From positions 868,001-932,000 of the forward strand of contig NW_025964235.1 in the NCBI RefSeq assembly GCF_023055435.1: a DNA stretch of 64,000 bases. Reading direction: 5' to 3'. Under the pieces are notes generated by a model that searched no databases, had not been told where the DNA came from, and worked only from the letters and a program-made list of their open reading frames with translations. Positions 1,657 to 57,636 of the stretch are shown in pieces (within the stretch, counting starts at the first letter, position 1; every line of letters starts with the position of its first letter). This DNA comes from Haliotis rufescens (taxonomy: Eukaryota). The position numbers and the translations under genes are program-made.

Positions 1657-4600
1657 ATGGACACCAGTCGCTTCCACGGAGGTGGACGTCTCAACATAAC
1701 ACAGGACTCGGCCCGAGATGTGGACGAAGATGAACCAAGAGACACGTCTTATACCGGCGTCCTGGTACAGCTCGCGATGGCGGCTGTTTGTGGCGGCTGT
1801 TTTGGGTATGCAGCAGAGAAGGGTAAAGGTACGTGTATAGTATCCCGTGTACTTAGATCCACAACCCACTACTACTACCATATACTAGTACTGCTGCTGC
1901 TACTGCTGCTACGTTTCCTCCTATGTTACTGCTGGTATTGGTTCTGCCACCACCACAACTACTACTACTACAACCCCTACTACTACTACTACTACAACCC
2001 CTACTACTACTACAACCCCAGCTACTACTACAACCCCAGCTACTATTACTACTACTATTACTACTACTATTACTACTACTACTACTACTACTACAACACC
2101 AGCTACTACTACTACTACTACTACACCGGCTACTACTACTACTACTACTTTACTACGGCTACTACAACCCCTGCTGCTGCTCCCACAACTACAGCTACCA
2201 CCACCACTACTACAACCACCACCACTACTACTTCTACTTCTCCAATTAAATCACCAACAACAACACCACTACTGCTTCTACTACTACACCCACCACCATC
2301 ACTCCCACAACTATTACAATCACCTCCACCTCTACTACTTCCTCTGCAACTAGCATTAATCTCTGCTCACTCACTTACTCATAAGCTACTACTACTACTA
2401 CTACTACTGCTACTACTACTGCTACGACGACTACTAAAATACCACCACTACCATTGTTCTACTCTAACATACACAGGCATATTACATATATTTTATGAGA
2501 ATAAACTGTTTACTGCAGTCACTATAAATTAATTTCAGAATCAATATGATGATCACTATGTACATGCAAGACATTTTGTTGTAGCGTTCGAACCTTCTGC
2601 CATCACGGCCCAGCTGACCTTGGAGAGATTCCTGCTGTTGAAAGTGTTGCTTGCCGCCACCGCAACAAGTATGTCTGCGTCTCTCTCAGTAATATACTCA
2701 GTGTGAACTCTAGGGAAGTGTAGGTCCTCGGTACCCATCTTCAGAGGATAGGATGTCAGACTCGGTGACTGATTGTGCTTCATCGCACCTTGATGGCATG
2801 GATGGTGGCTCATGCTTTCAGTCACTGGTTTGTCTGGTCCAGACTTGATTATTTTCAGGGCATATTTTTCCTTATTAATTAACCTTTGATAAACAGCTAT
2901 GATATATCTATATCTATAACAGGATAACTCATCTACATGGAGACATTTGATTTTTCTTTTCATATTAATCTGTACAAACACTCACAGCAGTCATATCTCA
3001 AAATAAATTACTCAAAGAATTCTGACCTGAATTCAACATGTGGTTTTGGCCATATTTAAGACATTCATTGATGTATTTGGAATGTATTATATGTAAAGTG
3101 TTTATTTGCAGTAAGTCTGTTGTATATGCAATAACCGTATGACGGCACATGTGGTATTCAAAAGTACCGAGATTATTCCAATGATATTTTTAACATGACA
3201 TCAATGGCAGCCATATTGAAAATATCCAACCAACATGTGACAGTCAGAGGAATATGGAGATGACTCATCTCCATGTGTCCCCTCATACTAAAGCAGTAGA
3301 CTGTAGAATGTAGAGTAGCAGATTATAGGGATATGTAGCATTTAGGCCAGACTTTATATTAAACATGGTTTACTATTCCAAAAAACTGAAAAGTGAAAAG
3401 TAAAGCAAAATTAAAAGCATTGTTTTTATTTGTATTTTTGTTCTACTTTTTCCACCTATCTGGCTAAAATTTTCAGCCCAAAAATCTGTAAACAATAAAA
3501 AAAAGAAAAAAACATTGATGGAAGTTGAACATGTAGACAGCTGCTTCAGCAGGTGTTGGCAGTAATTGCGGAGCTGTGGACTGCATGATCGTGATGCAGC
3601 TTGTAGCTCACCTTCCCTCCCTCTATGCCAGGTATGTTCTGCCTCTCCCTGCTGGCGATGGTCCCCGCAACAAGTCAACACTTCCAGCGAGCCAGGCAAC
3701 GCTTCCAGCTGCGCTTCCTTGACAAGGGTGTGGTCACAAGCATCGTGGGTGGAGGAATGCTCGGGGGAGGCATGGCCGTCTCAGGAGCGGTCAGCCACTT
3801 TGTGAACTCTACTATTTTAATATTTCTGTTCATCTCAGCCTTAATGTACTCTGGACCCATGGAGACACGGGGTAAAATAGGTCTTCAGCACCCCAGGCTT
3901 GTCGTAAGAAGCGACTACGCTTGTCGTAAGAAGCGACTACGCTTGTCGTAAGAAGCGAGTACGCTTGTCGTAAGAAGCGAGTACGCTTGTCGTAAGAAGT
4001 GACTACGCTTGTCGTAAGAAGCGACTGCTTGTTGTAAGAAGCGACTACGCTTGTCGTAAGAAGCGATCAGCTTGTGGTAAGAAGCGACTACGCTTGTTGT
4101 AAGAAGCGACTACGCTTGTTGTAAGAGAGGAATAAAGGAATCAGGTGGTCAAGCTCTCTGACCTGCTTGATGCAGGTCATCGAATCACAATTGTGTAGAT
4201 GTCATGATATCAATCACTGGATTGTATCGTTACCAGTACCTCTGATAACATTGATTCTCTAGCTGTAACTGTAGGACTGTTATCAGTTCATTAACAATGA
4301 ACAACTAAACTTGTTGTTATTTTGTGAAGTATATATGAGCCAATACTTGTCTGTTGTAGGGCCCTGCCATGGTGGTGGTGCAGCTGGGAGCAGGAGTCAG
4401 CTCAGCCGGTGAGATGTGGGGGTGGGTGGTGGGGGGGGAGGGTCTGTGTATTGTATCCTGAGATATGGACTACACACAGATAGGTCAGTGGAAGGACCCT
4501 CAAGCTGTGCAAGGCTGAGATAGGAAGGAAACTGTTGATAATCATGCCTCATGAATATATAGGATTATCTACTGTATTCAGTGATGTAATATGTTAATAC

Positions 4601-7600
4601 AATGTTCTTAGATGCAGCAATCTTAGTGTTTCAGGGACTTAACATTACACTGATGGTCGACTTAGTTCATTGGACTTCATTTTCAAGTTCTCTAAAGTGG
4701 ATTACCTGTCAACTTAATAAAGTTCTCATCTTCTAATACGTTTGTGACAGATCTTTTTTGTTTTTATCCACTGTGCCACTCTGTCGTCAGGCTTCACACT
4801 GGCAGGATGCCTGGTGGGGGTCGTTCTGTACGGCTGTCTGGAGCCATTTCTCACAAACATCTTGAAGCCAAGACAACCATACCTGCAATACTTGTGAGTA
4901 TTTTAAGAATATTTGTGGCATTGTGTGAATTGTTTATATGGCTTTTCATGTTTGCTCAATGAGATTTAAGACATTTAAGATGGTACAGATGGTACTTGTT
5001 GTTACCCTGCCTGGCACTCGGCATTAAGGGGCTAAAACAAGGACTGGTCATCTTGGGGTCAGTATACTGTGTCTGAGAGGGGTATTCATGTTAAACTGCG
5101 GCAGTATTAAGGGGGACAGATTAAGGCACAATAGCACAACTAAAAATTGGTCAGTATTTGTCTCAGCCACAAGGGGACAATGTCAGTATTGTCAGATCAT
5201 TTGATGAGATAAACATGTTCTGTTTGACAAGAAAAGATAGATTTTGAGGCTGGAAGTGGTTCCAACAAAATTGTTTGATAGGCATTACTTAGAAGTTGAC
5301 GGATGACAAGATAGACACAATTTTTATGGATAACAACTTCTTTAATACTGTGAAAAGCGACGTTTCGGTATAGATCCTTATACCGTTGTCAAGCAAGACT
5401 GAATGAGGGTCATAGTGCAGAATATATATAGTAGGTGGCTTCCAGCTGTGTTTTTTGTCCATCGTGTTGTGACAGCACCATCCCTTTGTTGTCACACCTA
5501 CCAATGTTACCCCACTCATGTATGCTGTTGTTGTTACTGTTAATCCTCCACCTACTATATATATTCTGCACTATGACCCTCATTCAGTCTTGCTTGACAA
5601 CGGTATAAGGATCTATACCGAAACGTCGCTTTTCACAGCATTGAAGAAGTTGTTATCCATAAAAATTGTGTCTATCTTTCCAACAAAATGTTAATAATTA
5701 AATACATACCATAAAGACATACTGCACCTTCATGGCCTGTACTTTCAATATATACAGTAGCAAGGTATTACTACATGCTGCACTGACACCCTCACTCACT
5801 GACAAGCACCACTGATTGTAGAGCCAGTTTGTGTAACATCACGTTTGTGTAGGCTCACTAAGCCTGTGTGAAGTTCTGGACCAGCATCTACTGTTTCAGT
5901 CTCCAGGACAGCCAGGGCGCCCCCTACTTCACGCTGTCACTCCCCCTAGCAGCCATGGTGTCCATGACGGTGTTTGCCCTGGAGCTGCTGGACCCCTGGG
6001 ACACGGAAGTCGATGTGCGTCTCCTGACTGTGGACATTAAACCACTATAAGTTGTTGCAGGATCACTCGGGGTACATGGGATTTTATGCATCTCATGGAG
6101 CTAGAAGCCGAAACCCCATGTGATCCTGCTGCAACAAATTTATCTTCCCAACATGTTTTAATATGACGCTGTAAAAGAATTCAAACAAATTCAAAATTGA
6201 TAGAAAACAGCTGTTCGATTGAAGTGAGGTTTGATGTCACGTGACTTCCATTGACTCGGAAAAAGTGTGCAGATTTTTGCTTTGAAGCGGGGTATAAGGG
6301 ATTTATTCTGTCTCTCAGAAATCCATGTACAGCCTGATTTGCTCATGGTGGGGTATAAGAGATTTATTACCCTCTTGAGAAATTTATTCCCCTCCAAGGC
6401 GAGTTGCACAGTATTTTATCAAGATCACGTGGACAAATGAGATCTCATCATCCTGACATGGAGGTATGATAATATTGTTTTGTGCCCAACTGCCCTAATT
6501 TGAGGATTTGACTGCTGCTTTGTCGTTCACACCATGTCGGTGTCTGTGGGGATTCTGAGGCAGAATAGGTCCCCAATATCGTGTGCTTATTGTTAGAGAC
6601 TAAATGGGGATTGGCTGACCAAAATGTAAACAGCTTTGCCTCACTCGTCGCCATGGAATCTTGATTGCAGCCTACATGAGAAACACAACAAATAGTACAA
6701 ACTGGTTCTTGTTTTTTTATTATAATGATTAATTTGCAAAGATATATAACAAAACTTCAAGATTGAATTGATTTTAAATCTAAATCTGCTAAATGACATA
6801 TTAAAAGTCAATTATATACAAATGTACAAAAAAGATTTGTTCAACAACATGTTTTATCACAATTTGAATTACTCGTGTTTTACAAGACTTTTACAAGACA
6901 AAGACAAGGTTTATCAGTACAACTAGATGTAAACTCACCTGGATCCGGGGCTGACAGTGAAGCTGATCCTATGTTGTAGTCCCAGAGCAGTGTGGAGTTG
7001 ATGTGGTCGCCCTACCTGTGTGGCGTAGTGATGGGGATGCTGCAGGTGCCCCTCGTGGTCATGCTCCAGGATACTCTAGGTGGGTGTGTCACAGTCTACT
7101 AAGTTTTAGTGAGCTACAGAGCTTCATAGAGAAGCGATACACTGTCTTCATATAGCAGAATGTATATTGTTGTGTCGAGACATTTAACGTTATTATTTCA
7201 GAGTGATATTTTATTTCTTAACAGTCAATTTGAGTTGCTTTGCCTGATGATTATTAAATGTTTTTTTTGTTTGTTTTTGTTTGTTGTTTAACACTGCACT
7301 ATATGACGACAGTCTGTAAATAATCGAATTCATTACTCAGAAATGCTGAGACTTCCAACATGCTCATTGGATATATTTCCCCTCCTAGGGGGCAGCACTA
7401 GCTTCTGCACTGTGATGTCCCAGGTGCTGATGTCAAGGTTGATGCGCAGGAAAATGCCATATCTTGCAAGGTTCCGATCAGGAATATCAAACTGGTGGCA
7501 GGTGAGTTTCTCAGTCAACAGCTGGTGGCAGCTGTAGAATTTTTCCAATTGATTTGACATATACAGATCCATAGATCACACACTCCACTCCACAAATCGT

Positions 7601-8564
7601 CATACCAGAGACCATATACCGGTATATGGTCTCTGGTCATACCTTTCGTTCCAATCGTCTCAAATTTCATTCCAGTCATCATAACTTTCATACCAGTTGC
7701 CAGTACTTTTGTTCTAATTGCCACAACTTTGGTAGAAGAAGACACTAAATGGGATGTTAAGGTCGATGACATTTTCATTTTTTGACGTAAAATGGTGAAA
7801 ATGTGGTCACAGTATATTATTATTAAAACACTTGTCTGAATGCTGATCATTATTATTTTTCAACCAAGCGAATATTTCTCTGCAATACAGTTTCAACTAT
7901 TATGGGTTGATTTGGAAAGTTAAAAATAGTTCTGATGCTGCTAACTTTTAGACATCAGAACATCATAAACATATGTGACAGCGACCAGCTGATGCTACAC
8001 AAACATGCCTTTAAATAGTCACATGTCGAAAGTTGGACTTGCAAAAGATACTTGGGGACAAATGCCCATTGTAATCTTTTCAATGTCATGTGTACTCCAT
8101 CCAGGTCCTGTTTATGCTGTTTGCTGTGATTGGAGCATACATTTCATCATCAACCAATCAGAATGTGCCAACAGGTGTCAGTGAAATCACTGGATTCATC
8201 GGAGGAATTCTAATCATATTTGGGGCAAGACTTGCTTCTGGATGTACAAGGTTAGCACATCTTCACTTATCTGTGAATATAAAGGTGAATACTGGTGAAT
8301 ATAAGGAGTGTTTTAGTGTTTGTTTCATACTGGACTACCTGTCATTACTCCATAGTAATGGATTTATCTTGATGACAAGAAGAAAGTATTCATTACCCGA
8401 TATGTTAGTGTCCCAATTAGAAGTCTGTTTGTTAATTGAATTATTATTTCTGTTTTAGTGATCACGTTATCTCTGGCGTAGGACTTTTATCTCTGCACTC
8501 CCTCATGTGTGTCCTGGCTGTAGTGGTTGGAGGTGTTGGCGCCGCCAGGCTGGTGCGCTCATAG
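1657..8564 (+). CDS. YeeE/YedE-family (TsuA-like) sulfur-compound transporter, 10 exons, about 381 aa
   Basis: Exons 1657-1828, 2585-2668, 3632-3789, 4360-4408, 4791-4893, 5900-6014, 6980-7079, 7389-7501, 8105-8250 and 8459-8564. All introns are GT-AG; total is 1146 nt in one frame ending TAG. The protein is hydrophobic and Gly-rich, with family-type motifs FGYAAEKGKAFEP, GGGMLGGGMAVSGA-GPAM, WSPYLCG, LGGSTSF and GGILIIFGARLASGCTSDH. Confidence 0.88.
1866..2452. repeat. (TAC)n/(CAC)n compound microsatellite in intron 1
   Basis: Direct reading. Confidence 0.92.
3897..4126. repeat. 22-bp tandem repeat amplified inside a family C retroposon
   Basis: GCTTGTCGTAAGAAGCGACTAC x about 10, flanked by the family C head and body. 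Confidence 0.9.
5272..5677. mobile_element. Penelope-like element remnant (inverted pseudo-LTRs)
   Basis: Near-perfect inverted arms of about 131 bp (5308-5438 / 5548-5678), one with a 3' extension. It is flanked by the direct repeat TTCCAACAAAAT (5260-5271, 5678-5689). Each arm holds a hammerhead-like motif. Confidence 0.7.
5592..5629 (+). ncRNA. Minimal hammerhead ribozyme variant (U3/A8), Penelope type
   Basis: GC-TTGACAA-C-GGTATA-aggatc-TATACC-GAAAC-GTC-GC: variant core, 6-bp stem II, GAAA, palindromic ACGT stem III and a GTC cleavage triplet. A mirror copy lies on the - strand at 5357-5394. Confidence 0.6.
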
Positions 8565-8706
8565 TACAGGATAACATGGGGAATGAAGGGAAGAACTGCG
8601 CATCGTGCAGACGAAGGTCTTGGTTGTCATGGTGATATCGGAACACATCTGTCTGAGCTGATGGTCCTGCAACTGCTGGTGTTAGGTCGATGATGTTGAG
8701 ACTGCT

Positions 8707-9110
8707 ATCCATGTAATGGTGCTCGTGTGTGCACACCGATGCTGTGATGGATGACAGTCCTGTAGGTTCTGATGCTGAGGTCATCAGTGCAGGTAATTCA
8801 AGGATGTTGACGATCGTTGAGACAGATATCCATGTAATGGTGCTCGTGTGTGCACACCGATGCTGTGATGGATGACAGTCCTGTAGGTTCTGATGCTGAG
8901 GTCATCAGTGCAGGTAATTCAAGGATGTTGACGATCGTTGAGACAGATATGCATGTAATGGTGCTCGTGTGTGCACACCGATGCTGTGATGGATGACAGT
9001 CCTGTAGGTTCTGATGCTGAGGTCATCAGTGCAGGTAATTCAAGGATGTTGACGATCGTTGAGACAGATATGCATGTAATGGTGCTTGTGTTTGCACACC
9101 GATGCTGTGC
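8707..9110. repeat. 121-bp tandem repeat x about 3.3
   Basis: Units start at 8707, 8828, 8949 and 9070. Confidence 0.9.
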
Positions 9111-9393: not shown

Positions 9394-10141
9394 GTTGGCT
9401 GTCAGAACCTTAGTAGTAACATTGAATGCAGTTGTTAGAACCTCAGTGGTAACATTGAACTTGGCTGTTAGAACCTTAGTGGCAACATTTAACTTGGCTG
9501 TTAGAACCTTAGTGGTAACATTGAACTTGGCTGTTAGAACCTCAGTGGCAACATTGAACTCAGCTGTTAGAACCTCAGTGGCAACATTGAACTTGGCTGT
9601 TAGAACCTTAGTGGTAACATTGAACTTGGCTGTTAGAACCTTAGCGGCAACATTGAACTTGGCTGTTAGAACATCAGTAGTAACATTGAACTTGGCTGTT
9701 AGAACCTTAGTGGCAACATTGAACTTGGCTGTTAGAACCTCAGTGGTAACATTGAACTTGGCTGTTAGAACCTTAGTTGTAACATTGAACTTGGCTGTTA
9801 GAACCTTAGTGGTAACATTGAACTTGGCTGTTAGAACCTTAGTGGCAACATTGAACTTGGCTGTTAGAACATCAGTAGTAACATTGAACTTGGCTGTTAG
9901 AACCTTAGTGGCAACATTGAACTTGGCTGTTAGAACCTCAGTGGTAACATTGAACTTGGCTGTTAGAACCTTAGTTGTAACATTGAAATTGGCTGTTAGA
10001 ACCTTAGTGGTAACATTGAACTTGGCTGTTAGAACCTTAGTGGTAACATTGAACTCAGCTGCTGCAACCTTAGTGGTAACATTCAACTTGGCTGTTAGAA
10101 CCTTAGTGATAACATTGAACTTGGCTGTTAGAGCCTCAGTA
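9394..10141. repeat. 33-bp minisatellite x about 22
   Basis: TTGGCTGTTAGAACCTTAGTGGTAACATTGAAC. Confidence 0.95.
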
Positions 10142-14866: not shown

Positions 14867-19205
<4,339 letters not shown>

Positions 19206-20699
19206 CTGATTAACTTTTGTGTCAAACCCTGAAACAAACCCTGAAATATTTTACAAAAATATACAAAGATAGTGTGAGTATCTAAATCACGTAAACATGG
19301 AAAATATCATCTTTGAAATTTGACATACTGATATCATATATAAAGTCACTCTGAGCACTGTTTAGACATTAAAAAGTAAAGAATGAAATCTGTCAAAACT
19401 TTTACAGCTTCCCCCATGTTGATGTTGCAAAATCTGTACAATGTGTTGGCTAAACATGCTAAAGCTTAAACATTTATTAGGGCCTATAGACTTATTAACT
19501 GCATTTTAATTTGCAACAAATTGGTCACCTTGGTCATTTGTTGGTAAGGAATGTTTCATTGTTTTTCACCATGGTGACAGTTGTTCTTGATGTTTACACG
19601 GCACAATTTTGTTATTGGGAATGTTATTGGCAACATTAAAACATGCTAAATAATGAATATGTTAAAGGTATCATGTGAGTAGAAATAACTATGGATAATG
19701 GCAGATCAATAGAAATATATATCAATCAAAGTATTGTACTTCAAACAGTGTATCATTGGTACTCTCATAATGCTAATAACAGATTGGCATATGATGATTG
19801 TGAATAATGACAATTATTGTACTTTCAACAATGTTCAATATTACTCATTTCAGAGTTGTGGAAATTGTCTCCATAATACTTGTTTGTGTTGCACTCACAC
19901 GCAGATTTCGTGTTTAGGTTAATGTCTTCTCGAAATATTTGTTTGCTCAAATATTTTAAAGTGAGAATATGAATACATGGCAGATAGATATACAGTAAAA
20001 TACATCCAACCTTAGCATGATTATTAGAATTATCTGTTCTGATAATTTCTGAACATGACAAGACTGAAGAGAATATAGGATTGGCAACTGACATGTACTT
20101 TGCCAGTCCCTGGTATCCTTTGCATCAAACATAATACAAAAAAGAGGGAAACATGCCCCCTTCAAAACTCAGAAACATAAGATCGATCTATTTCAATGTA
20201 AATATATAAAATGCATAATTCGCTGTGGTACATAAAGATAAGGACTGTCAAAGTACATCCTACCAGTGCGAACATGGTGACGGCCACACTCAGCATGTTC
20301 AGCCACTGTGGTGTTGTTGTTTTTCTATTACTAGGCTAATCACTTACACTAGCATAGTTCAGTCAGTGGGAAAGAAACTTATGCCTGAAATCCCCTTTTA
20401 ATTCCAAACGGTGCTTTCTAAATGTGTTTATCAACCTCAGCTGACACAAAGATATGACCTGATGATGTCAGCAAGATCACTAGCCACTGTTTATCCTGTT
20501 CATAATCTGACAGTGACTGACAGGTCAAGATCTTCAACTGGTGGCAGACTGACGGGATATTCACAGCTTTAAACCTTCTGTTTCGCAGTTAATACGACAT
20601 AACTTTGTACTTACGGTATGCATAATTAAGAAAAACAGAATCTCGATGTCCGATTGCATTACTTGCGTGAACAATCACTGTCGAAAGAAAGTGACAATG

Positions 20700-28832: not shown

Positions 28833-30456
28833 TTTTTATATGATTTTATTTCTTTTTGGGGTACACAAACAATATGTTTACAGAATATAGTTCACATGCA
28901 AACTTAAATGCATACAAGTTACAAAGTATATATCTATAGATGATAACAAAAACAAAACAAACTATTCCAGTGTCATATTGTTGGATTGTGCAAGTTCGTG
29001 GTTTTAAACGAATAGGTGGTGACAGAGAGACCAAAATGTCATGAACTGTGTGTATTTACATTGTGAATATGATATATTTCTGTCGATGTAATATGAATCG
29101 GTTATTTCTTGTTTGATGCGTGGGAAGTTTGGTATGGTGTAGGAAATGTTTGATTTGAATATGTGTTGCTTTGTTACAGTTATAATATGATTTAATACAT
29201 CATTTCGTTTTTGTTGATTTCCTAATAAAATTGTCAATTTTGGAAATTCTAGTTCTATTCCAGTTTTGTTTTTGATATATTGTATAAGGTTGTTCCAGCA
29301 GGGTCTAGTAATTAACATGCATTCCAAAAAAAAGATAAACCAAAGCAGCACTTAAAAAATTGGAGACCAATTTCGCTATTAAATGTTTCCTATAAGATAA
29401 CATCAGCAACAATAGCAAATAGAATAAAAAAAGTTCTGCCAACAATAATTAACGAAGATCAAAGAGGTTTTATGTCAAAACGATACATTGGAGAATGCAC
29501 TAGATTAATTTATGATATTATGGACTTTACTGAATCATGCATGGAAATCCCATGGTTGTTGTTATTTATAGACTTTGAAAAGGCGTTGATTCAGTAGACT
29601 GGGTTTTCATCCAAGAAGCTTTGACCTTTTTATATATTTTGGACCTTCTAAGTTAAGCACTGGATAAGAACATTCTATCACCATATAAAATCTAGTGTTT
29701 AAGTTAACGGTTTAATGCTACGCACTAATAAAAATATAAACGGAATTAGGATCGACGAGATAGAATATCTAATTTCCCAATTCGCAGACGACACATCTCT
29801 CATATAAGATGGAACTGAAAATTGTCTCCAAAACACCATGACAACTCTTCAAACATATGCGTCTTTTTCAGGCCTAAAAATTTACACAAGCAAAACGCAA
29901 GTGTTGTGGGTTGGCTCACAACGCTTCTCTGATAAATCTCTGTGCAAAAGTAGGAATATCGATTGGTCAAGAAAAAGTTTTACTCTTCTCGGTATCATTT
30001 TTACTCACAATTTGGCAGAAATGGTAGAGTGAGTAAGTGAGTATGGTTTTACGCCGCTTTTAGCAATATTCCAGCAATATCACGGCGGGGGATACCAGAA
30101 ATGGGCTTCACACATTGTAGCCATGTCGGGAATCGAACCCGGGTCTTCTGCGTGACGAGCGAAAGAAATGGTAGAAAGAAAATACAAAGATAAACTTAAA
30201 AGTTTAAAAATCATCATGAACTCATGGTTATCACGTGACCTGACCCCATTAGGTAGAATTACTGTACTAAAAAGTCTTATTTTACCTAAACTAACCCACC
30301 TTTTCTCAACCCTACCTAATCCAAGTGAAAGGTTTATAAAAGAACTCGAAACACTGTGTTTTCGTTTTATATGGAAAAATAAACCAGACGATATAAGTAG
30401 AAATATTATGATGAAACCTTATGAAGAGGGAGGTTTAAGAGTGCCTGATTTTAAAA
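28833..30456. mobile_element. L1/Tx1-clade LINE, 5'-truncated and 5'-inverted, degenerate
   Basis: The ORF2 C-terminus, AATAAA and A-tail lie on - (28833-about 29333). The RT segment (KNWRPISLLN..YKI, QRGF, DFEKA, SQFADD, EGGLRVP) lies on + (about 29325-30456). A 14-bp TSD ATCATCCAAAACGT sits at 28819-28832 and 30457-30470. Confidence 0.88.
30029..30162 (-). mobile_element. tRNA-derived SINE family A, 5'-truncated, nested in the LINE
   Basis: Matches the 54087 copy; TSD AGAAATGGTAGA on both sides. Confidence 0.85.
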
Positions 30457-30559
30457 ATCATCCAAAACGTGCCTCCACAGGAGAAATCACTTTGCAGAAT
30501 ATTGTGACGTCATCGATTACCATGACGTCACCATCTCTGCAATTGAGGCAGGTTAGTTA

Positions 30560-30798
30560 TGTTTGTTTGTTGTTTAACGCCGTACTCAGCAATATTCCAG
30601 CTGTATGACGGCGGTCTGTAAATAATCGAGTATGGACCAGACATCCAATGATTGACTTCATGAATATCGATCCCTGCAATTAGGATACGATGACATGCAT
30701 CAACCAAGTCAGCGAGCCTGACCACCCGATCCCGTTACCCGCCTCTTACGGAAAGCTTAGGTTGCTGAAGACCAATTCTACCCCAGAACTTCACGGGC
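30560..30798 (-). mobile_element. Short retroposon family C (no tRNA head, (AAAC)n tail)
   Basis: Consensus CCCGTGAAGATCCGGGTTAGAAT..GTCTTCAGCAACCCATGCTTGTCGTAAGAGGCGACTAACGGGATCGGGTGG...GCTGGAATATTGCTGAGTGCGGCGTTAAACAACAAAC. There are at least 15 copies or fragments in the window. Confidence 0.85.
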
Positions 30799-39300: not shown

Positions 39301-41696
39301 CCTATCAAACAATTTTGTCTTAAAAATCCTAAATTTCTAAGGCTGCCCCAATGATGTATCCGAGCCAAAATGTCACATAAGTGTGAAATAGGAAGTTGTC
39401 CTTGCTGTTTATGAAATGTGTGCTGTCTCCGCTCCAGTCCTTCTACACGACCATGACCTCGGAGTACGGCATCCCGGAGTGGGGGTGCTACCTCATCTTC
39501 GCTGTCCTCACCATTGTCTCAGGCCTCCTCCTCGGGCTGGTGAGTAGCGGGGGACATATTGGGCAACAAACAGGTTGGGAAAATCTGATTGGTTGCAAAT
39601 GATGTTTAATCTGATTCGAAACTTGTAACTTTTCTTCAGGATCTATACCAAAACAGGGTGTTGGGGTAACGTAGTTGTTAAAGCGTTCACTTCTCATCCT
39701 GAAGACCCGGGTTCAATTCTCCACTTGGGTAGTGTGAATCCCATTGCTGGTGTCCCCTGCCGTGATATTGCTGAAATATTGCTAAAAGTGGCATAAAACC
39801 ATACTCACTCACTCATTCTTTCACATTACAGTAGGAGAAAGAAGTTGTTATCCATAAGTTTTTGGTCTACTTTAACTCTTCTGGACTTATTCTTCTGGAG
39901 TACATTTCTGAATAAGAGTGACAAATGTGTCATTTAGCCTGGTGAACTATGTATTGTTTTTAGATTGCAGATAAATATGTGTTTTCAGAATTTTCCATGT
40001 TATTGTGCATTTGACAGGACATTTTGCATGTATATCTATGGCTAATATTTTTTATTTTATTTTCAAAAACATTTTGCGCCCATCAAGTATTCAGTTTGAG
40101 AAAACCTGAAAGTAGTTTATTTGTGGACGTCATTATTATAAGCTGAATAACTGAAACACAGCTGCGGGAGATCACATTGAAGTCGCTGATCATTTTGATT
40201 ATTCGTGTAAGAAACCTTCTAAATATGAGTGGGGCTGCAGGGTAACCCTAGTGTTTAAAGCATTTGCTCGTGATGCTGAAGGCGTGGGTTTGATTTGAGT
40301 CAGTTCTACTTTTCCGATGGATATGTAACATATCAGTTCAATCTGTGGAACTTCTTGAGACAGCTCGGTTTGTCACTACTTTGAAGTTTTTTAAATGCCA
40401 AATATATATGCCTCTTTAAATAGTGGTGGTATGTATCTCTAAAGCATTGCCCCGTGACTTGCTGCTACAGCTCATCGTGTGTTGCTGTGATGTGCTGTTT
40501 CCGCCCAAATACCAAAGTGTGAGAGTCATTCAGGAGCAGCCTCAAGGGATGGGAGATACTATGGACAGGGAGGACAAGGTAGGTTTGTCATGACACAGGT
40601 GTACTCCGGACAGGGAGGACAAGGTAGGTCGTCCTGACACAGGTGTACTCTGGACAGGGAGGACAAGGTAGGTCGTCATGACACAGGTGTACTCCGGACA
40701 AGGAGGATAAGGTAGGTCGTGATGACACAGGTGTACTCCGGACAGGGAGGACAAGGTAGGTCATCCTGACACAGGTGTACTCCGGACAGGGAGGACAAGG
40801 TAGGTCGTCCTGACACAGGTGTACTCTGGACAGGGAGGACAAGGTAGGTCGTCATGACACAGGTATACTCCGGACAGGGAGGACAAGGTAGGTCGTGATG
40901 ACACAGGTGTACTCCGGACAGGGAGGACAAGGTAGGTCATCCTGACACAGGTATACTCCGGACAGGGAGGACAAGGTAGGTCGTCATGACACAGGTGTAC
41001 TCCGGACAGGGAGGATAAGGTAGGTCGTGATGACACAGGTGTACTCCGGACAGGGAGGACAAGGTAGGTCATCCTGACACAGGTATACTCCGGACAGGGA
41101 GGACAAGGTAGGTCGTCATGACACAGGTGTACTCCGGACAGGGAGGACAAGGTAGGTCGTCATGACACAGGTATACTCCGGACAGGGAGGACAAGGTAGG
41201 TCATCCTGACACAGGTGTACTCCGGACAGGGAGGACAAGGTAGGTCGTCATGACACAGGTGTACTCCGGACAGGGAGGACAAGGTAGGTCGTCATGACAC
41301 AGGTGTACTCCGGCCAGGGAGGACAAGGTAGGTCGTCATGACACAGGTGTACTCCGGACAGGGAGGACAAGGCAGGTCGTCATGACACAGGTGTACTCCG
41401 GACAGGGAGGGCAAGGCAGGTCGTCATGACAAAGGTGTACTCCGGACAGGGAGGGCAAAGTAGGTCGTCATGACACAGGTGCACTCCAGACACAAGCCGA
41501 GGTAGGTCGTCATGACACAGGTGTGTGGACGCATTATTCAACAACATCTGAACGGAATGGCGAATGCTGTATCTGACACACAGTATTGTACTTGCAGGAT
41601 GATGATATCATTGATGACACAAAACAAACAGATAGTGATGATGATGATGAAACTTCTTCAACCACACGACGGAGACAAGTACAGAAGGCGGAATGA
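33325..41696 (+). CDS. TMX1: Thioredoxin-related transmembrane protein 1, 8 exons, about 261 aa
   Basis: Exons 33325-33464, 35633-35748, 36875-36920, 37252-37380, 38477-38522, 39438-39539, 40471-40578 and 41598-41696 (786 nt in frame). Has a signal peptide, GEWMVEFMAPWCPAC active site, GLSGRFFVTALPTLYH, a TM helix with juxtamembrane CCC, and an acidic tail with RRR. Confidence 0.93.
34478..34967. mobile_element. hAT-like MITE
   Basis: CAGTGTCGAAATAA / TTATTTCAAACACTG termini and subterminal CCTGCCC repeats; TSD degraded. Confidence 0.5.
35170..35608. repeat. 36-bp minisatellite x about 12
   Basis: GTAAACAAACGATTRAGATAKGACAATGGTATGTCA. Confidence 0.9.
36089..36312 (+). mobile_element. Family C retroposon
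   Basis: Near full-length copy. Confidence 0.8.
39120..39319. mobile_element. Second, shorter Penelope-like inverted remnant (TMX1 intron 5)
   Basis: Same family as 5272-5677, including the tail CATCCGTCAACTTCTAAGTAATGCCTATCAAACAATTTTGT and the motif TTGACAAC...TATACCGAAACGTC at 39195-39227. Confidence 0.7.
39655..39815 (+). mobile_element. SINE family A, diverged
   Basis: Sequence similarity to the 54087 copy; (ACTC)n tail. Confidence 0.8.
40563..41523. repeat. 44-bp minisatellite x about 21 spanning the TMX1 exon 7 / intron 7 junction
   Basis: GGACAGGGAGGACAAG|GTAGGTCGTCATGACACAGGTGTACTCC. Confidence 0.95.
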
Positions 41697-45329: not shown

Positions 45330-47645
45330 TGTGGTGAAGCAGGTGCAGAGGGAGTCCTGAGAGTGGAGATTGGAAGGGTACAATGGCCGCTTTGTGTGGT
45401 GAAGCAGGTGCAGAGGGAGTCCTGAGAGTGGGGATTGGAAGGGTACAATGGCTGCTGTTTGGTGAAGCAGGTGCAGAAGGAGTCCTGAGAGAGGGGATTG
45501 GAAGGGTACAATGGCTGCTGTGTGGTGAAGTGTGAGTACAATGGCCGCTGTGTGGTGAAGCAGGTGCAGAGGGAGTCCTGAGAGTGGGGATTGGAAGGGT
45601 ACAATGGCCATTGTGTGGTGAAGCAGGTGCAGAGAGAGTCCTGAGAGTGGGGATTGGAAGGGTACAATGGCTGCTGTGTGGTGAAGCAGGTGCAGAAGGA
45701 GTCCTGAGAGAGGGGATTGGAAGGGTACAATGGCTGCTGTGTGGTGAAGCAGGTGCAAAAGGAGTCCTGAGAGTGGGGATTGGAAGGGTACAATGGCTGC
45801 TGTGTGGTGAAGCAGGTGCAGAGAGAGTCCTGAGAGAGGGGATTGGAAGGGTACAATGGCTGCTGTGTGGTGAAGCAGGTGCAAAAGGAGTCCTGAGAGT
45901 GGGGATTGGAAGGGTACAATGGCTGCTGTGTGGTGAAGCAGGTGCAGAAGGAGTCCTGAGAGTGGGGATTGGAAGGGTACAATGGCTGCTGTGTGGTGAA
46001 GTGTGAGTACAATGGCCGCTGTGTGGTGAAGCAGGTGCAGAGGGAGTCCTGAGAGTGGGGATTGGAAGGGTACAATGGCCATTGTGTGGTGAAGCAGGTG
46101 CAGAGAGAGTCCTGAGAGTGGGGATTGGAAGGGTACAATGGCTGCTGTGTGGTGAAGCAGGTGCAGAAGGAGTCCTGAGAGAGGGGATTGGAAGGGTACA
46201 ATGGCTGCTGTGTGGTGAAGCAGGTGCAGAAGGAGTCCTGAGAGTGGGGATTGGAAGGGTACAATGGCTGCTGTGTGGTGAAGCAGGTGCAAAAGGAGTC
46301 CTGAGAGTGGGGATTGGAAGGGTACAATGGCTGCTGTGTGGTGAAGCAGGTGCAGAGAGAGTCCTGAGAGAGGGGATTGGAAGGGTACAATGGCTGCTGT
46401 GTGGTGAAGCAGGTGCAAAAGGAGTCCTGAGAGTGGGGATTGGAAGGGTACAATGGCTGCTGTGTGGTGAAGCAGGTGCAGAAGGAGTCCTGAGAGTGGG
46501 GATTGGAAGGGTACAATGGCTGCTGTGTGGTGAAGTGTGAGTACAATGGCCGCTGTGTGGTGAAGCAGGTGCAGAGAGAGTCCTGAGAGTGGGGATTGGA
46601 AGGGTACAATGGCTGCTGTGTGGTGAAGCAGGTGCAGAAGGAGCCCTGAGAGAGGGGATTGGAAGGGTACAATGGCTGCTGTGTGGTGAAGCAGGTGCAA
46701 AAGGAGTCCTGAGAGTAGGGATTGGAAGGGTCCAATGGCTGCTGTGTGGTGAAGCAGGTGCAGAAGGAGTCCTGAGAGTGGGGATTGGAAGGGTACAATG
46801 GCTGCTGTGTGGTGAAGCAGGTGCAAAAGGAGTCCTGAGAGTGGGGATTGGAAGGGTACAATGGTTGCTTTGTGGTGAAGCTGGTGGAGAGGGAGTCCTG
46901 AGAGTGGGGATTGGAAGGGTACAATGGCCGTTGTGTGGTGAAGCTGGTGGAGAGGGAGTCCTGAGAGTGGGGATTGGAAGGGTACAATGGCTGCTGTGTG
47001 GTGAAGCAGGTGCAGAGGGAGTCCTGCGAGTGGGGATTGGAAGGGTACAATGGCTGCTGTGTGATGAAGCAGGTGCAAAAGGAGTCCTGAGAGTGGGGAT
47101 TGGAAGGGTACAATGGTTGCTGTGTATGGTGAAGCAGGTGCAGAGGGGGTCCTGAGAGTGGGGATTTGAAGGGTTCAATGGCCGCTTTGTGTGGTGAAGC
47201 AGGCGTAGAGGGAGTCATGAGAGTGGTGATTGGATGGGTTACGACGGCTGTTGTGTGGTGAAGAGGCGCAGAGGGAGTCATGAGAGTGGAGATTGAATGG
47301 GTACAATGGCCGTTTTGTTGAAGTGTGAGTACAATGGCTGCTGTGTGGTGAAGCAGGTGCAGAGGGAGTCATGAGAGTGGAGATTGGATGGGTACAATAG
47401 CCGTTGTGTGGTGAAGTGTGAGTACAATGGCTGCTGTGTATTGTGAAGCAGGGATTGGGTGGGTACAATGGCCGCTGTGTGTTGTGAAGCAGGGATAGGG
47501 TGGGGATTGCGTGGGTACAATAGCCGCTGTGTATTGTGAAGCAGTGATATGGTGGGGATTGGCTGGGTACAATGGCCTGTGTGTATTGTGAAGCAGGGAA
47601 AAGGATGGGGATTGGCTGGGTACAATGGCCGCTGTGTATTGTGAA
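45330..47645. repeat. 63-bp minisatellite with higher-order structure
   Basis: TGTGGTGAAGCAGGTGCAGAGGGAGTCCTGAGAGTGGGGATTGGAAGGGTACAATGGCTGCTG x about 30, punctuated by 30-bp short units and decaying at the right end. Confidence 0.95.
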
Positions 47646-51529: not shown

Positions 51530-53646
51530 TGTTGCATTGAACCTCATACACACCGCAGTGGCCATACGCCTCAGTGGCGTACAGAAGTCACGACTCATCC
51601 AGCAGGACACAGATGGGTTTACCAACGCCATCAGGAGCAGTCCGATATTCTAAGAGAAATGTTCCTTTCTTATCAAACACACAGGCTCCTGCAAAGTCAT
51701 AGTCTGCAACAAACACGGTGCCATCCTCCGAGACACAAACATCATTGGGTTTCCAGGTTGCTGTGCTAAAACATTTTGTTTGAACTTTGTTCTTGCTGGC
51801 CGTGACCCGGACACATGATCCACCCCATTCACACAAGGCAATATGGCCGCTGGGGGTGAAACTAGAGCTGATACTGGAGAGACAGCATAATATCGTTCAG
51901 TCCCATCTGTAAAGTAATATTGGAGATTCTTTTTATTGGGAATGTTTCCAACTACGAACCCCTGTTCTTTGGAACCAGTCAGACAATAAGTGAAGATAAG
52001 ACTTTCACTTGGGACCTTGTGGTGCAAAAGGATCTTCTTCATGATCTGCAATGAATTGTCAAATATAAAGAGGTAGTTCTCATGGATAACACCAATACTT
52101 TCATTTGCGATTGCAACAGCAATCGGTTTAAATGCATCCATTTTAATCTTCCTTTAAAAATCCCCATCAGTGGTAGAGAATTTGACTTTTTCATTAGCCA
52201 TGTCGGCAAATACCCGCCCTACCTATGGACTGTAGGCTCCACCCCTGATGTCTGGTCTCTCTTTGTCAGATTAGCACCGGGCAATGAATAGTCTTGTCAG
52301 GTTTAATCTAACTGTGGGACGAACTTCAACGTTTTCACACTGGTCCCGTTGGTATGAAACCTTGAAATTTCAAGAAGTTCTGTCATAGTCTCAGGTTTTT
52401 CTGTGCTGACATCTTTATCTGACTGTAAAGCAGATTGTGTAATTTCAGCTGAGATACTGAGTTCTTTCCCATCATCATTCAGACCTGGCTCGCTTTTTTC
52501 CCAAGGACTCCAGTTCACATTCATCTCCAAGAGGATGCCCCTGGAGTTGCCTGAGTCTCTCAGTCATCATTGTCTCCAGCATCAGAACCTCGACGTCCCT
52601 ACCCTCCGCTAGGATGTGGTCACAGAAGTCGACACAGCTGCTTATCACACCTTTCTGAAGGCGTACATCTCCAAGCTTGCTCTCTTGTTCCTTTGTGGCA
52701 GCTTTTGTTTGATAATGTTGTCAGTATATCCTCCTTCATTTTGAGTATCTTAGAAATGTTGAGTTTGGCATTTTGTTCGGTTTCAATCTTTTTATTCTTT
52801 TCTTTGTTTTTAATGGTTTGGATCACTGATACTATCTTTCCTTCAGCTTCTGATAATGTTGTCATATTTCACCTAATCTTTTCAGTTATTGCGATGATGA
52901 TTATCCGTTTTCTTGTTACAGCTTCCGATATTGTTTGACATCTGTGGTCCCTGCGTTCAATGAGGACACAAGTCAAACAGACGGGTTGCTTGCAAGACTC
53001 GCAATAAAACTCCACTTCTTTGTTCTCATGCTTCTGGCATGTTATTTTCTGTAGTTCTCTCAACTTCCTATCATACGTTCCTTCTTTCAGATCACCAAGG
53101 GCTATTCTTTCGTGCTTCCATGTAAGGAATGAAGAATTGTGACCATCAGAGCAGATGGTACAAAGAAGATCTGCACAATCAAGGCACTTCACTTCTGCAG
53201 TTGAATCTCTCCCTCTGAGGCCACAAGCTGTACATTTCAAAGTTTTGGTTGACATGAGTTTCACTATTTCAGTGAGTCCATTGATGAAGAAATTTGTCTT
53301 GATGGAGGTGACATCACCCAGTACAGATTCGTGACAATCAGGGCAGACGACAGGTCTTCCATCAGTTTTGGCAGTGTGCGCATAGGTACAGATTCCCGAC
53401 AAGCAGGGCAGACGACAGGTCTTCCATCAGTTATGGCAGTGTGCCCATAGGTACAGATTCCCGACAATCAGGGCAGACGACAGGTCTACCATCAGTTTTG
53501 GCAGTGTGCGCATAGGAAAACATGCACAGGAAGCAGTAGGTGTGGAGACAAGGCAGGGTCCGAGGATCTGTGAACACCTCAAAGCAGATGTGGCAGGTGA
53601 GGAACTCATCTCGGATTGACTCTGTCCCAGATGTCCCAGATGCCAT
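51530..53646 (-). pseudogene. Disrupted TRIM (RING-Bbox-Bbox-coiled-coil-NHL) E3 ligase paralogue
   Basis: RING (FLTCHICFEVFTDPRTLPCLHTYCFLC), two B-boxes, coiled coil and NHL-like segments (WKPNDVCVSEDGTVFVADY) are split over at least 5 ORFs by frameshifts and stops. It is collinear with the gene at 62457. Confidence 0.85.
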
Positions 53647-54629: not shown

Positions 54630-56648
54630 CAGGTAGACCGCAGACGGGGGGGGGGGGGGGAACTAATACTTCCAAGTAGGTCGTCATGACACAGGTATAC
54701 TCCAGACAGTGGGGACTATTACTTCCAAGTAGGTCGTCATGACACAGGTATACTCCAGAGAGGGGGGACTAATACTTCCAAGTAGGTCGTCTTGACACAG
54801 GTATACCCCAGACAGGAAGAAGGACTATTACTTCCAAGTAGGTCGTCATGTCACAGGTAGACCGCAGACAGTGGGGACTATTACTTCCAAGTAGGTCGTC
54901 ATGACACAGGTATACCCCAGACAGGAAGGACTATTATTTCCAAGTAGGTCGTCATGACAGAGATATACTCCAGACAGGGAGGACTATTACTTCCAAGTAG
55001 GTCGTCATGACACAGATATACTCCAGACAGTGGGGACTATTACTTCCAAGTGGGTCATCATGACACAGATATACTCCAGACAGAGGGGACTATTACTTCC
55101 AAGTAGGTCGTCATGACACAGATATACTCCAGACAGAGGGGACTATTACTTCCAAGTAGGTCATCATGACACAGGTATACTCCAGACAGGGGGGACTATT
55201 ACTTCCAAGTAGGTCATCATGACACAGATATACTCCAGACAGAGGGGACTATTACTTCCAAGTAGGTCGTCATGACACAGATATACTCCAGACAGAGGGG
55301 ACTATTACTTCCAAGTAGGTCATCATGACACAGGTATACTCCAGACAGGGGGGACTATTACTTCCAAGTAGGTCATCATGACACAGGTATACTCCAGACG
55401 GGAGGGGCTATTACTTCCAAGTAGGTCGTCATGTCACAGGTAGACCGCAGACAGTGGGGACTATTACTTCCAAGTAGGTCGTCATGACACAGGTATACCC
55501 CAGACAGGAAGGACTATTATTTCCAAGTAGGTCGTCATGACACAGGTATACCCCAGACAGGAAGGACTATTATTTCCAAGTAGGTCATCATGACACAGAT
55601 ATACTCCAGACAGAGGGGACTATTACTTCCAAGTAGGTCATCATGACACAGATATACTCCAGACAGAGGGGACTATTACTTCCAAGTAGGTCATCATGAC
55701 ACAGGTATACTCCAGACAGGGAGGACTATTACTTCCAAGTAGGTCATCATGACACAGATATACTCCAGACAGAGGGGACTATTACTTCCAAGTAGGTCGT
55801 CATGACACAGATATACTCCAGACAGAGGGGACTATTACTTCCAAGTAGGTCATCATGACACAGGTATACTCCAGACAGGGGGGACTATTACTTCCAAGTA
55901 GGTCATCATGACACAGGTATACTCCAGACGGGAGGGGCTATTACTTCCAAGTAGGTCGTCATGACACAGGTATACTCCAGACAGAGGGGACTATTACTTC
56001 CAAGTAGGTCGTCATGACACAGGTAGACCGCAGACAGTGGGGACTAATACTTCCAAGTAGGTCGTCATGACACAGGTATACTCCAGACGGGAGGGGCTAT
56101 TACTTCCAAGTAGGTCGTCATGACACAGGTATACTCCAGACAGAGGGGACTATTACTTCCAAGTAGGTCGTCATGACACAGGTAGACCGCAGACAGTGGG
56201 GACTAATACTTCCAAGTAGGTCGTCATGACACAGGTATACTCCAGACAGTGGGGACTAATACTTCCAAGTAGGTCGCCATGACACAGGTATACACCAGAC
56301 AGTTGGGACTCATACTTCCAAGTAGGTCGTCATGACACAGGTATACTCCAGACTGGGGGGACTATTACTTCCAAGTAGGTCATCATGACACAGGTATACT
56401 CCAGACAGGGAGCACTAATACTTCCAAGTAGGTCGTCATGACACAGGTAGACCCCAGACAGGGGGGGACTATTACTTCCAAGTAGGTCGCCATGACCCAG
56501 ATATACTCCAGACAGTGGGGACTAATACTTCCAAGTAGGTCGTCATGACACAGATATACTCCAGACAGTGGGGACTAATACTTCCAAGTAGGTCGTCATG
56601 ACCCACGTAGTCTTCACGGAGGTCAGGGTAGATTGTCATGACACAGGC
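54630..56648. repeat. About 53-bp minisatellite x about 37
   Basis: GGGGACTATTACTTCCAAGTAGGTCRTCATGACACAGRTATACTCCAGACAGA. Confidence 0.95.
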
Positions 56649-56933: not shown

Positions 56934-57572
56934 GATGGCTACGTGTCTACCGACGTCGACATGAACGTTTTGCACCAAACTACGCAGAGATGGAAGACAG
57001 CGTGTCTACCAACGTCGACATGAACGTTTTGTACCGAACTGTGCCGAGATGGGAAACATTGTGTCTACCGACATCGACATGAATGTTTTACACCGAATTA
57101 CGCCGAGATGGGAGACAGCGTGTCTACCAACATCGACATGAACGTTTTGTACTGAACTGTGCCGAGATGGGAAACATTGTGTCTACCGACATCGACATGA
57201 ATGTTTTACACCGAATTACGCCGAGATGGGAGACAGCGTGTCTACCAACATCGACATGAACGTTTTGTACCGAACTGTGCCGAGATGGGAAACATTGTGT
57301 CTACCGACATCGACATGAATGTTTTACACCGAATTACGCCGAGATGGGAGACAGCGTGTCTACGGACGTTGACATGAACGTTTTGCACCGAACTGTGCCG
57401 AGATGGGAAACATCGTGTCTACCGACATCGACATGAATGTTTTACACCGAATTACGCCGAGATGGGAGACAGCGTGTCTACGGACGTTGACATGAACGTT
57501 TTGCACCGAACTGTGCCGAGATGGGAAACATCGTATCTACCGACGTCGAAATAAAAGTTTTGCACCGAACTG
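56934..57572. repeat. 59-bp tandem repeat (alternating A/B units) x about 11
   Basis: GTGTCTACC recurs at 56943, 57002, 57061, 57120 and onward. Confidence 0.92.
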
Positions 57573-57636
57573 CTTTGATCAGGTCCACAGATTCAGTGCC
57601 AGAAGTGTGATGGTGTGGGGTGCCATATCCTACACA

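What the first reader, a model, noticed from the sequence alone, without database searches (positions are those of the whole stretch)
1657..8564. Intron-rich animal gene for a YeeE/YedE (thiosulfate-transporter-type) protein
Seen: a clean 10-exon gene with phase-compatible junctions, so it is a resident animal gene and not bacterial contamination. Known: the YeeE/YedE family is characterised mainly in bacteria (TsuA/YeeE thiosulfate uptake; paired small YeeE/YedE proteins). Inference: this invertebrate may have a little-studied sulfur-oxyanion transport route. The protein looks like a fusion of a 'CPG'-type half and a 'GCTSGH'-type half.
Basis: partly seen in the sequence, partly recalled or inferred. 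Interest (0 to 1): 0.7.

Follow-up and report, generated by a model that had tools for sequence, protein, structure and literature searches.

The report
Abalone sulfur channel missing key cysteine
This is a real, spliced abalone gene for a YeeE-type sulfur-channel protein, one of two copies that many invertebrates carry, but this copy has lost the central cysteine that tested bacterial relatives need, so it likely no longer moves sulfur the usual way, while a second, intact abalone copy likely does.

Summary
Ten GT..AG exons (1657-8564, +) give a 381-aa protein identical to Haliotis rufescens XP_046364332.2 (RefSeq 'uncharacterized'). Spliced contigs from three studies fit all nine junctions. 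It passes Pfam PF04143 and folds like bacterial YeeE (Z 33.5, rmsd 2.4 A).

The family is not special to this animal. Molluscs, annelids, brachiopods, echinoderms, hemichordates, amphioxus, a sponge, choanoflagellates, fungi and protists have it, and many bilaterians have two old paralogs. The scan found eukaryotic YeeE genes before on other DNA (Naegleria, protists), but no look-alike of this one.

This copy has no 'CPG' and no 'GCTSGH'. All four abalone orthologs lack the Cys91-equivalent (Gly/Ala139), which 71 of 71 other named homologs keep and which is essential in bacterial members, and the second loop reads GCTSDH. The scaffold is still under purifying selection. Abalone keeps an intact second paralog.

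The closest bacterial relatives found are split two-gene pairs matching its two halves. Function is untested. The best reading is a Cys-less, remodelled paralog, not a working thiosulfate importer.

The parts
1657..1828 (+). exon 1: ATG, low-confidence N-terminal tail (about aa 1-30), first helix, start of loop A (aa 1-57)
   Evidence: spliced contigs begin at 1607-1621
2585..2668 (+). exon 2 (aa 58-85): loop A without the Cys22-equivalent (absent in the whole eukaryotic clade); abalone-specific M75L and F79L
3632..3789 (+). exon 3 (aa 86-138), ends just before the central-Cys position
4360..4408 (+). exon 4 (aa 139-155): loop B; codon 4360-4362 is GGC (Gly139) where the family has the Cys91-equivalent; also G141A
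   Evidence: both flanking joints seen in X19 and X20
4791..4893 (+). exon 5 (aa 155-189)
5900..6014 (+). exon 6 (aa 189-227), end of the N-terminal half that matches the bacterial CPG-half gene
6980..7079 (+). exon 7 (aa 228-261), start of the C-terminal half that matches the bacterial GCTSGH-half gene
7389..7501 (+). exon 8 (aa 261-298)
8105..8250 (+). exon 9 (aa 299-347): holds Arg340 and the one retained relay cysteine, Cys345 (8243-8245, Cys293-equivalent)
8459..8564 (+). exon 10 coding part (aa 347-381, stop): G348D (8460-8462), G350V, M368V, F369V against the family consensus
8565..8811 (+). 3' untranslated sequence carried on the same spliced contigs (true end not shown)
   Evidence: table 8

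Best explanation
The gene is a spliced, expressed abalone copy (class A) of an old two-copy invertebrate YeeE family; its protein is predicted to keep the YeeE hourglass fold but has lost the central relay cysteine, so it likely no longer passes sulfur by the cysteine relay and likely survives as a remodelled, Cys-independent membrane protein, while the intact class B copy likely does the family's ancestral job. Shown: exon structure, splicing, family, paralogy, motif loss in four abalone species, conservative substitution pattern. Predicted: the fold. Inferred: (1) the ancestral job of the eukaryotic two-Cys clade is moving sulfane sulfur (polysulfide/persulfide) or thiosulfate across a membrane for the SQOR/persulfide-dioxygenase detoxification route, as bacterial YedE1E2 does, not sulfur uptake for cysteine synthesis; (2) with B covering this, A was released in the abalone lineage; (3) the changes fall in the pore-forming loops B and D and the helices beside them (139, 141, 348, 350, also 75, 79, 368, 369), and a new Asp three residues from the last Cys would disfavour anions at the entry.
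For: Loss of the central Cys in 4 of 4 Haliotis orthologs (Gly in 2, Ala in 2), against Cys in 144 of 153 other hits, 139 of 142 in alignment A3 and 71 of 71 other named rows of the tree. Position mapped to StYeeE Cys91 by alignment. C91A/C94S abolish function in StYeeE and E. coli YeeE (PMC7449682); Cys-to-Ser abolishes SoxT1B (PMC11582611) and YedE1E2 (PMC10812762). AF2 pLDDT 93, pTM 0.91; VIA Z 33.5, rmsd 2.4 A over 303 residues to 8J4C, next unrelated Z 5.5. 51 of 67 family-conserved positions are unchanged in all four abalones; 8 are changed in all four. The 80 replacements between H. rufescens and H. asinina have mean BLOSUM62 +0.56, against -0.61 +/- 0.17 (max -0.09 in 1000 runs) for neutral simulation; only 2.2% of 2000 neutral runs stay stop-free at that distance. 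Intact paralog P0263/P0183/P0188. Class A (SH-aLRT 98) and lophotrochozoan class B (99) are separate, and Haliotis A+B as one clade is rejected, p-AU 5.9e-182. A sponge host YeeE gene rises by day together with an H2S-detoxification gene; the paper names SQOR as up by day (PMC12879404).
Against: No functional data exist for any animal member, so both the ancestral substrate and the loss of activity are carried over from bacterial mutants at about 20% identity. Cys345 is kept in 3 of 4 abalones, so a one-Cys activity is not excluded. The exon differences listed for run X19 are 11 nonsynonymous to 4 synonymous, about omega 1 (a small count, partly polymorphisms, and the table left out 46 rows), and A evolves about twice as fast as B (95.3 vs 98.0% and 78.9 vs 88.8% identity); both fit relaxation or slow decay as well as a new role. 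The bacterial pairs have no conserved sulfur-gene neighbours (no neighbour family in more than 9 of 80 loci). None of 16 long eukaryotic homologs scanned carried a rhodanese or dioxygenase domain. Monophyly of class A was open in the 28-row tree. I could not inspect side-chain positions in the model.
Confidence: 0.6

Rival explanations
1. The protein is still a working sulfur-compound channel, using Cys345 alone or no cysteine.
For: Fold and most conserved positions kept, including Lys55, Lys77, Arg340, His349. Cys345 is present in 3 of 4 abalones. StYeeE tolerates loss of Cys22. A few other homologs lack the central Cys (9 of 153 incl. 1 gap).
Against: The central Cys is essential in YeeE and SoxT1B, and both conserved Cys in YedE1E2. 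G348D and G350V/I hit positions 99% conserved. The H. rubra record has Ser at 345 too (that record also has a short frameshift-like stretch, so it may hold errors).
Confidence: 0.2
2. The gene is a slowly decaying duplicate on its way to becoming a pseudogene, still transcribed but dispensable.
For: Long stem (0.60-0.81 changes per site), twice the rate of B, 11N:4S in the listed X19 differences, low contig depth (not a measure of level).
Against: Full-length frame in four species, intact splicing, strongly conservative replacements, 51 of 67 conserved sites untouched. The motif changes predate the split of the four species.
Confidence: 0.12
3. The missing Cys is an assembly or gene-model error, or an alternative exon supplies it.
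For: GGC is one base from a Cys codon and sits at the first base of exon 4.
Against: Three other species' records also lack it. RNA contigs join 3788>4359 with no difference listed at 4360-4362, and a DNA contig of organism B spans the site with none listed there. tblastn with 7 homologs finds no alternative exon or second copy in the window.
Confidence: 0.02
4. The gene is a recent bacterial transfer into abalone or molluscs.
For: The family is characterised only in bacteria; bacterial split pairs match the clade's profile at E about 1e-55 per half.
Against: Nine introns. Animal sequences from sponge to amphioxus form a clade (support 0.96) with a choanoflagellate as sister (0.90), far from the bacterial pairs. 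Homologs across eukaryote supergroups.
Confidence: 0.01

Closest known systems
TsuA/YeeE thiosulfate transporter (Spirochaeta thermophila, PDB 6LEO/6LEP/8J4C/8K1R; E. coli YeeE)
   Same: Same Pfam family, same half order in one chain, same predicted fold (Z 33.5, rmsd 2.4 A; Foldseek E 9.9e-08), Cys293-equivalent kept.
   Different: 18-20% identity; 18.6 bits vs a cut-off of 400 for NF052577; no Cys22- or Cys91-equivalent; no YeeD-like partner noticed nearby; animals do not build cysteine from thiosulfate (own knowledge).
YedE1E2 / PmpAB (two small proteins, one essential Cys each; zero-valent sulfur import coupled to persulfide dioxygenase, PMC10812762)
   Same: The eukaryotic clade has the same two-Cys design (Cys91- and Cys293-equivalents only), as PMC11582611 maps for PmpB and PmpA.
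   Different: Those are about 130-aa proteins on two genes; here one 381-aa chain, and this copy lacks one of the two Cys. No direct sequence comparison with YedE1E2 was made.
Uncharacterised bacterial split pair, mostly Alphaproteobacteria (loci L001-L080)
   Same: Closest prokaryotic relatives found: a gene of about 172 aa matching the C-half and one of about 206 aa matching the N-half, with the clade's full motifs.
   Different: Two genes, C-half first (79 of 80 loci; L064 is cut by its contig end); 0 of 80 fused; both Cys intact in nearly all.
Invertebrate 'TsuA-like / UPF0394 YeeE-like' proteins (automatic RefSeq names), including H. rufescens LOC124131263 and class A orthologs of Babylonia, Littorina, Aplysia, Pecten
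   Same: Same clade; 39-48% identity.
   Different: They keep GxCPG and GC(T/S)SGHG; none found studied by experiment.

Membership tests
YeeE/YedE family (PF04143) | Pfam Sulf_transp above gathering score over most of the model | tested here: met
   92.6 bits vs 27; residues 61-373 on model 7-309/310
YeeE/YedE family (PF04143) | Hourglass fold of nine membrane helices with four buried loops | tested here: met
   Predicted model, pLDDT 93; Z 33.5, rmsd 2.4 A, 303 aligned to 8J4C
TsuA/YeeE thiosulfate importer | NCBIfam TsuA model above cut-off | tested here: not met
   NF052577 18.6 bits vs 400; NF041049 not hit at E 0.01
TsuA/YeeE thiosulfate importer | Central cysteine (Cys91), essential | tested here: not met
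   Gly139; essential per PMC7449682
TsuA/YeeE thiosulfate importer | Outer cysteine (Cys293), essential | tested here: met
   Cys345, but with G348D and G350V beside it
TsuA/YeeE thiosulfate importer | Inner cysteine (Cys22) | tested here: not met
   Aligns to Phe59; Phe/Tyr in most of the clade
TsuA/YeeE thiosulfate importer | YeeD/TsuB partner | not testable with these tools
   No whole genome is held for this window
TsuA/YeeE thiosulfate importer | Thiosulfate transport | not testable with these tools
   Needs an assay
YedE1E2/PmpAB-like two-Cys sulfane-sulfur channel | Both conserved Cys present | tested here: not met
   One of two in this copy; both in paralog P0263
YedE1E2/PmpAB-like two-Cys sulfane-sulfur channel | Link to persulfide dioxygenase or rhodanese genes | tested here: inconclusive
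   None among the commonest neighbours of 80 bacterial loci or in 16 long homologs; searches were limited in length and number
Selenium-linked YedE/FdhT | NF033796 above cut-off | tested here: not met
   28.9 bits vs 350
Bilaterian class A YeeE paralog | Groups with class A, not with class B | tested here: met
   SH-aLRT 98 in the 20-row tree, A+B clade rejected; class A open in the 28-row tree

The most novel reading that the evidence does not exclude
Abalones have turned one of two ancient animal YeeE channels into a cysteine-independent transporter with a new cargo: the scaffold is held by selection while the sulfur-relay loops were rebuilt (Cys to Gly/Ala, Gly to Asp). It would be the first YeeE protein working without the relay, and the A/B pair in one genome would be a ready natural experiment on the YeeE mechanism and on an unstudied sulfur-handling pathway of invertebrates.
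Probability: 0.25. Interest if true: 0.65.

Novelty: new variant of a known kind. Interest (0 to 1): 0.42.

Why it matters
The gene itself is already in RefSeq, and eukaryotic YeeE-like proteins are mentioned in print (abstract of PMC11073785), so an animal YeeE gene is no surprise. Two things are worth a specialist's time. First, many invertebrate phyla carry two old YeeE paralogs that I found tested nowhere; they are candidates for how sediment and symbiotic animals move sulfane sulfur or thiosulfate. Second, abalones keep one intact and one Cys-less copy, which makes the role of the cysteine relay directly testable and warns that the automatic label 'thiosulfate transporter TsuA-like' (given to the H. 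asinina ortholog) is likely wrong for this copy.

Tried and rejected
Whole-genome search: no genome held, so paralogs came from protein searches only. My first exon guess misplaced the ends of exons 5-7 (fixed). Single exons: only exon 9 of 9 tested hit PF04143, below cut-off. Tandem paralog or alternative exon 4 in the window: none. No listed holder is on record as RNA; I used only the spliced structure of the contigs, not depth. X17 showed only an unspliced piece among the rows listed. Mitochondrial origin of the eukaryotic clade: 71 of 80 kept loci bear alphaproteobacterial names, but the scan used one motif and read 16 of 64 parts, and the tree leaves the bacterial pairs as their own clade with an unsure root; not shown. 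Function from bacterial neighbours: nothing conserved. A fused bacterial form: 0 of 80 loci; the intronless candidate P0108 lies beside a TMEM231 gene, so it is eukaryotic. P0018 (unnamed, both Cys lost) as sister of the abalone copy: seen, not; left open. The model of paralog B (pLDDT 88.7) has the same helix layout and added nothing decisive. No complex prediction was run. Literature: ten searches gave no study of an animal YeeE protein beyond one mention in a sponge transcriptome; most were judged from listings only. The oyster paper concerns a Vibrio gene and the C. elegans hit was a peptide string.
Full report
1. Observation. The window holds ten exons on the + strand from 1657 to 8564. 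All nine introns are GT..AG, and the joined frame is 1146 nt, 381 aa, with no internal stop. A search with exon 9 returned three Haliotis proteins; P0001, H. rufescens XP_046364332.2 (LOC124140686, 'uncharacterized'), differs at 0 of 381 positions. Runs with a 0.13-0.16 share of the region, about the coding share, carry spliced contigs. In X15 and X19 exon 1 and exon 3 are 86 contig letters apart (2+84); in X15 and X18 exons 3 and 6 are 153 apart (1+49+103) and exons 6 and 8 are 96 apart; exons 8, 9 and 10 abut. X19 and X20 show GT..AG joints on both sides of exon 4. These runs come from three studies and two organism labels; their RNA status is a guess by the tool, but the splicing is direct. 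The gene is real and transcribed.

2. Family. P0001 scores 92.6 bits on PF04143 (cut-off 27) but only 18.6 on the TsuA model NF052577 (cut-off 400) and 28.9 on YedE/FdhT (350). The AlphaFold2 model from a 146-row alignment has pLDDT 93. Its only clear matches are StYeeE structures (Foldseek: 5 hits with E below 0.001, all StYeeE; VIA Z 33.5 and 32.8, next 5.5).

3. Spread. phmmer found 1330 representatives at E up to 0.001, 179 at 1e-30. Named hits include bivalves, gastropods, annelids, a brachiopod, a bryozoan, echinoderms, hemichordates, amphioxus, choanoflagellates, a chytrid, a foraminiferan, cryptophytes and amoebae (genus names for EukProt rows as given in the accessions; P0249 read as the sponge Ephydatia from its gene id, my recall). 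An Atlas cluster of 312 eukaryotic members is commonest in rotifers. No vertebrate, arthropod or nematode name appears among the 120 rows listed of 157; this is a lead, not a test. In an 80-row tree the animal rows form a clade (0.96) with Salpingoeca as sister (0.90), which fits vertical descent.

4. Two paralogs. Several species have two distant copies. A 20-row IQ-TREE gives class A (SH-aLRT 98; the window gene, Babylonia 1, Littorina, Aplysia, Lymnaea, Pecten, Crassostrea 1, Lingula 1, Ptychodera) and a lophotrochozoan class B (99). Forcing the two Haliotis copies together costs 85 log units, p-AU 5.9e-182; forcing Haliotis A with other gastropod A copies is not rejected, p 0.44. In a 28-row tree (quick search only) class B held and class A was open. 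H. rufescens class B is LOC124131263 (P0263), 38.6% identical, with intact GACPG and GCTSGHG.

5. What is odd about this copy. It reads GAGPA and GCTSDHV. Position 139 aligns with StYeeE Cys91 and 345 with Cys293. Cys139 is present in 144 of 153 other hits and in 71 of 71 other named rows of the 115-row tree, including every named class A ortholog outside Haliotis. It is Gly in H. rufescens and H. cracherodii and Ala in H. rubra and H. asinina. Of 67 positions at least 80% conserved among 142 other homologs, 51 are unchanged in all four abalones, 8 vary, and 8 are changed in all four: M75L, F79L, C139G/A, G141A, G348D, G350V/I, M368V/I, F369V/I. Four of the eight lie in loops B and D, which form the centre of the YeeE pore (PMC7449682, section 8 read). 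StYeeE C91A and C293A do not complement, C22A does, and all three E. coli Cys are essential (section 11 read). Cys-to-Ser kills SoxT1B (PMC11582611, passages) and either half of YedE1E2 (PMC10812762, passages). The Cys22 position is Phe/Tyr in most of the eukaryotic clade, so the clade is a two-Cys type and this copy a one-Cys type. A few unnamed homologs (P0018, P0029, P0069) also lack the central Cys, so such loss has parallels.

6. Selection. For: intact frames in four species; mean BLOSUM62 of the 80 rufescens-asinina replacements +0.56 against -0.61 +/- 0.17 under neutral simulation; 2.2% of neutral runs stop-free at 79% identity. Against: A evolves about twice as fast as B, and the exon differences listed for X19 are 11 nonsynonymous to 4 synonymous, omega about 1. 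That count comes from cut tables, and at least three of the sites differ in organism A runs too. I read this as relaxed but real constraint.

7. The 'fusion'. A scan of bacterial and archaeal genomes with one motif (16 of 64 parts read, 600 confirmed, best 80 kept) returned split pairs: a gene of about 172 aa matching the C-half followed by one of about 206 aa matching the N-half, each at E about 1e-50 to 1e-60 to the clade's profile in the proteobacterial loci; both were seen in 79 of 80 loci and none was fused. Full-length bacterial YeeE genes in the same loci score only 1e-9 to 1e-13. So the eukaryotic chain corresponds to such a pair joined in the reverse of the operon order. The seam lies near residues 228-235, at intron 6, which may be chance. 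TsuA has the same half order, and PMC11582611 already proposes a PmpB+PmpA fusion origin for long YeeE proteins, so the fusion is a family trait. Direction and donor are not settled. Neighbours give no clue.

8. Mechanism. Inferred for the clade: a two-Cys relay that moves sulfane sulfur or thiosulfate across a membrane within sulfide detoxification. Basis: YedE1E2 imports zero-valent sulfur and forms GSSH for persulfide dioxygenase; yeeE-yedE-pdo2 is a detoxification operon in Acinetobacter (PMC7315123, passages) and is induced under sulfane-sulfur stress in Cupriavidus (PMC9959259, passages); a sponge host YeeE gene is up by day with an H2S-detoxification gene (PMC12879404, passages; its supplementary Fig. 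S10 not seen); animals do not assimilate thiosulfate into cysteine (own knowledge). Inferred for this gene: relay broken, scaffold kept, so a Cys-independent or transport-dead role, with paralog B as the working channel (0.6). Rivals: still a sulfur channel (0.2), decaying duplicate (0.12), error or recent transfer (0.03 together).

9. Known or new. The gene model is public, and eukaryotic YeeE-like proteins are mentioned in PMC11073785 (passages) and listed in a fungal proteome table (PMC12565617); PMC8310684 (passages) calls thiosulfate uptake in fission yeast obscure. Ten searches found no study of animal members, of the two paralog classes or of the abalone Cys loss; the library lacks most subscription papers, and supplements of the YeeE papers (alignments, fig. 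S1 of PMC7449682) were not seen. Earlier scan notes cover Naegleria and protist YeeE genes; none matched this sequence. Verdict: a new variant of a known kind, interest 0.42.

Noticed in passing
window 18468-19250 (-): 260-aa open exon with basic and Ser/Asp-rich tracts; resembles the N-terminal part of GPATCH2/GPATCH2L from recall only. No Pfam or Atlas hit.
   Followed up: partly
window 52869-53426 (-), perhaps continuing at 51650-52153 (-): Two B-box zinc fingers (PF00643, E 9.9e-11), a TRIM-like gene; a 65-bp tandem repeat at 53321-53516 overlaps its upstream end.
   Followed up: partly
window 5308-5438 and 5548-5678 (intron 5): 131-nt inverted repeat, 98% complementary, 109 nt apart; high-copy in laid contigs, MITE-like.
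   Followed up: partly
window 8695-9109: 121-bp tandem repeat, 3.4 copies, 98% matches, overlapping the gene's 3' untranslated region.
   Followed up: no
window 9395-10140, 40563-41524, 45330-47310, 54656-56609, 56942-57573: Long minisatellite arrays (periods 33, 44, 63, 53, 59); the long ORFs over them look like repeat artefacts.
   Followed up: no
window 30156-30608 (+) and 29004-29351 (-): Short ORFs that look like LINE retrotransposon remnants (recalled resemblance; no Pfam hit).
   Followed up: partly
L001-L080: Undescribed-looking bacterial split YeeE pair (C-half gene then N-half gene), mostly Alphaproteobacteria, the nearest prokaryotic match to the eukaryotic clade; about 2500 stretches estimated to hold the motif.
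   Followed up: partly
L074 (also L008, L050, L079): Several YeeE genes clustered: L074 has two full-length YeeE genes beside a split pair; L079 has two split pairs.
   Followed up: no
P0032 (Phlyctochytrium, 689 aa), P0030 (Elphidium, 593 aa): Two YeeE stretches in one chain.
   Followed up: no
P0018, P0020, P0029 (unnamed, animal-like): Other degenerate copies that lost one or both relay cysteines, apparently independently.
   Followed up: partly
P0002 (H. rubra), about aa 216-228: Short frameshift-like stretch and Ser at the Cys345 position; record error or further decay.
   Followed up: no
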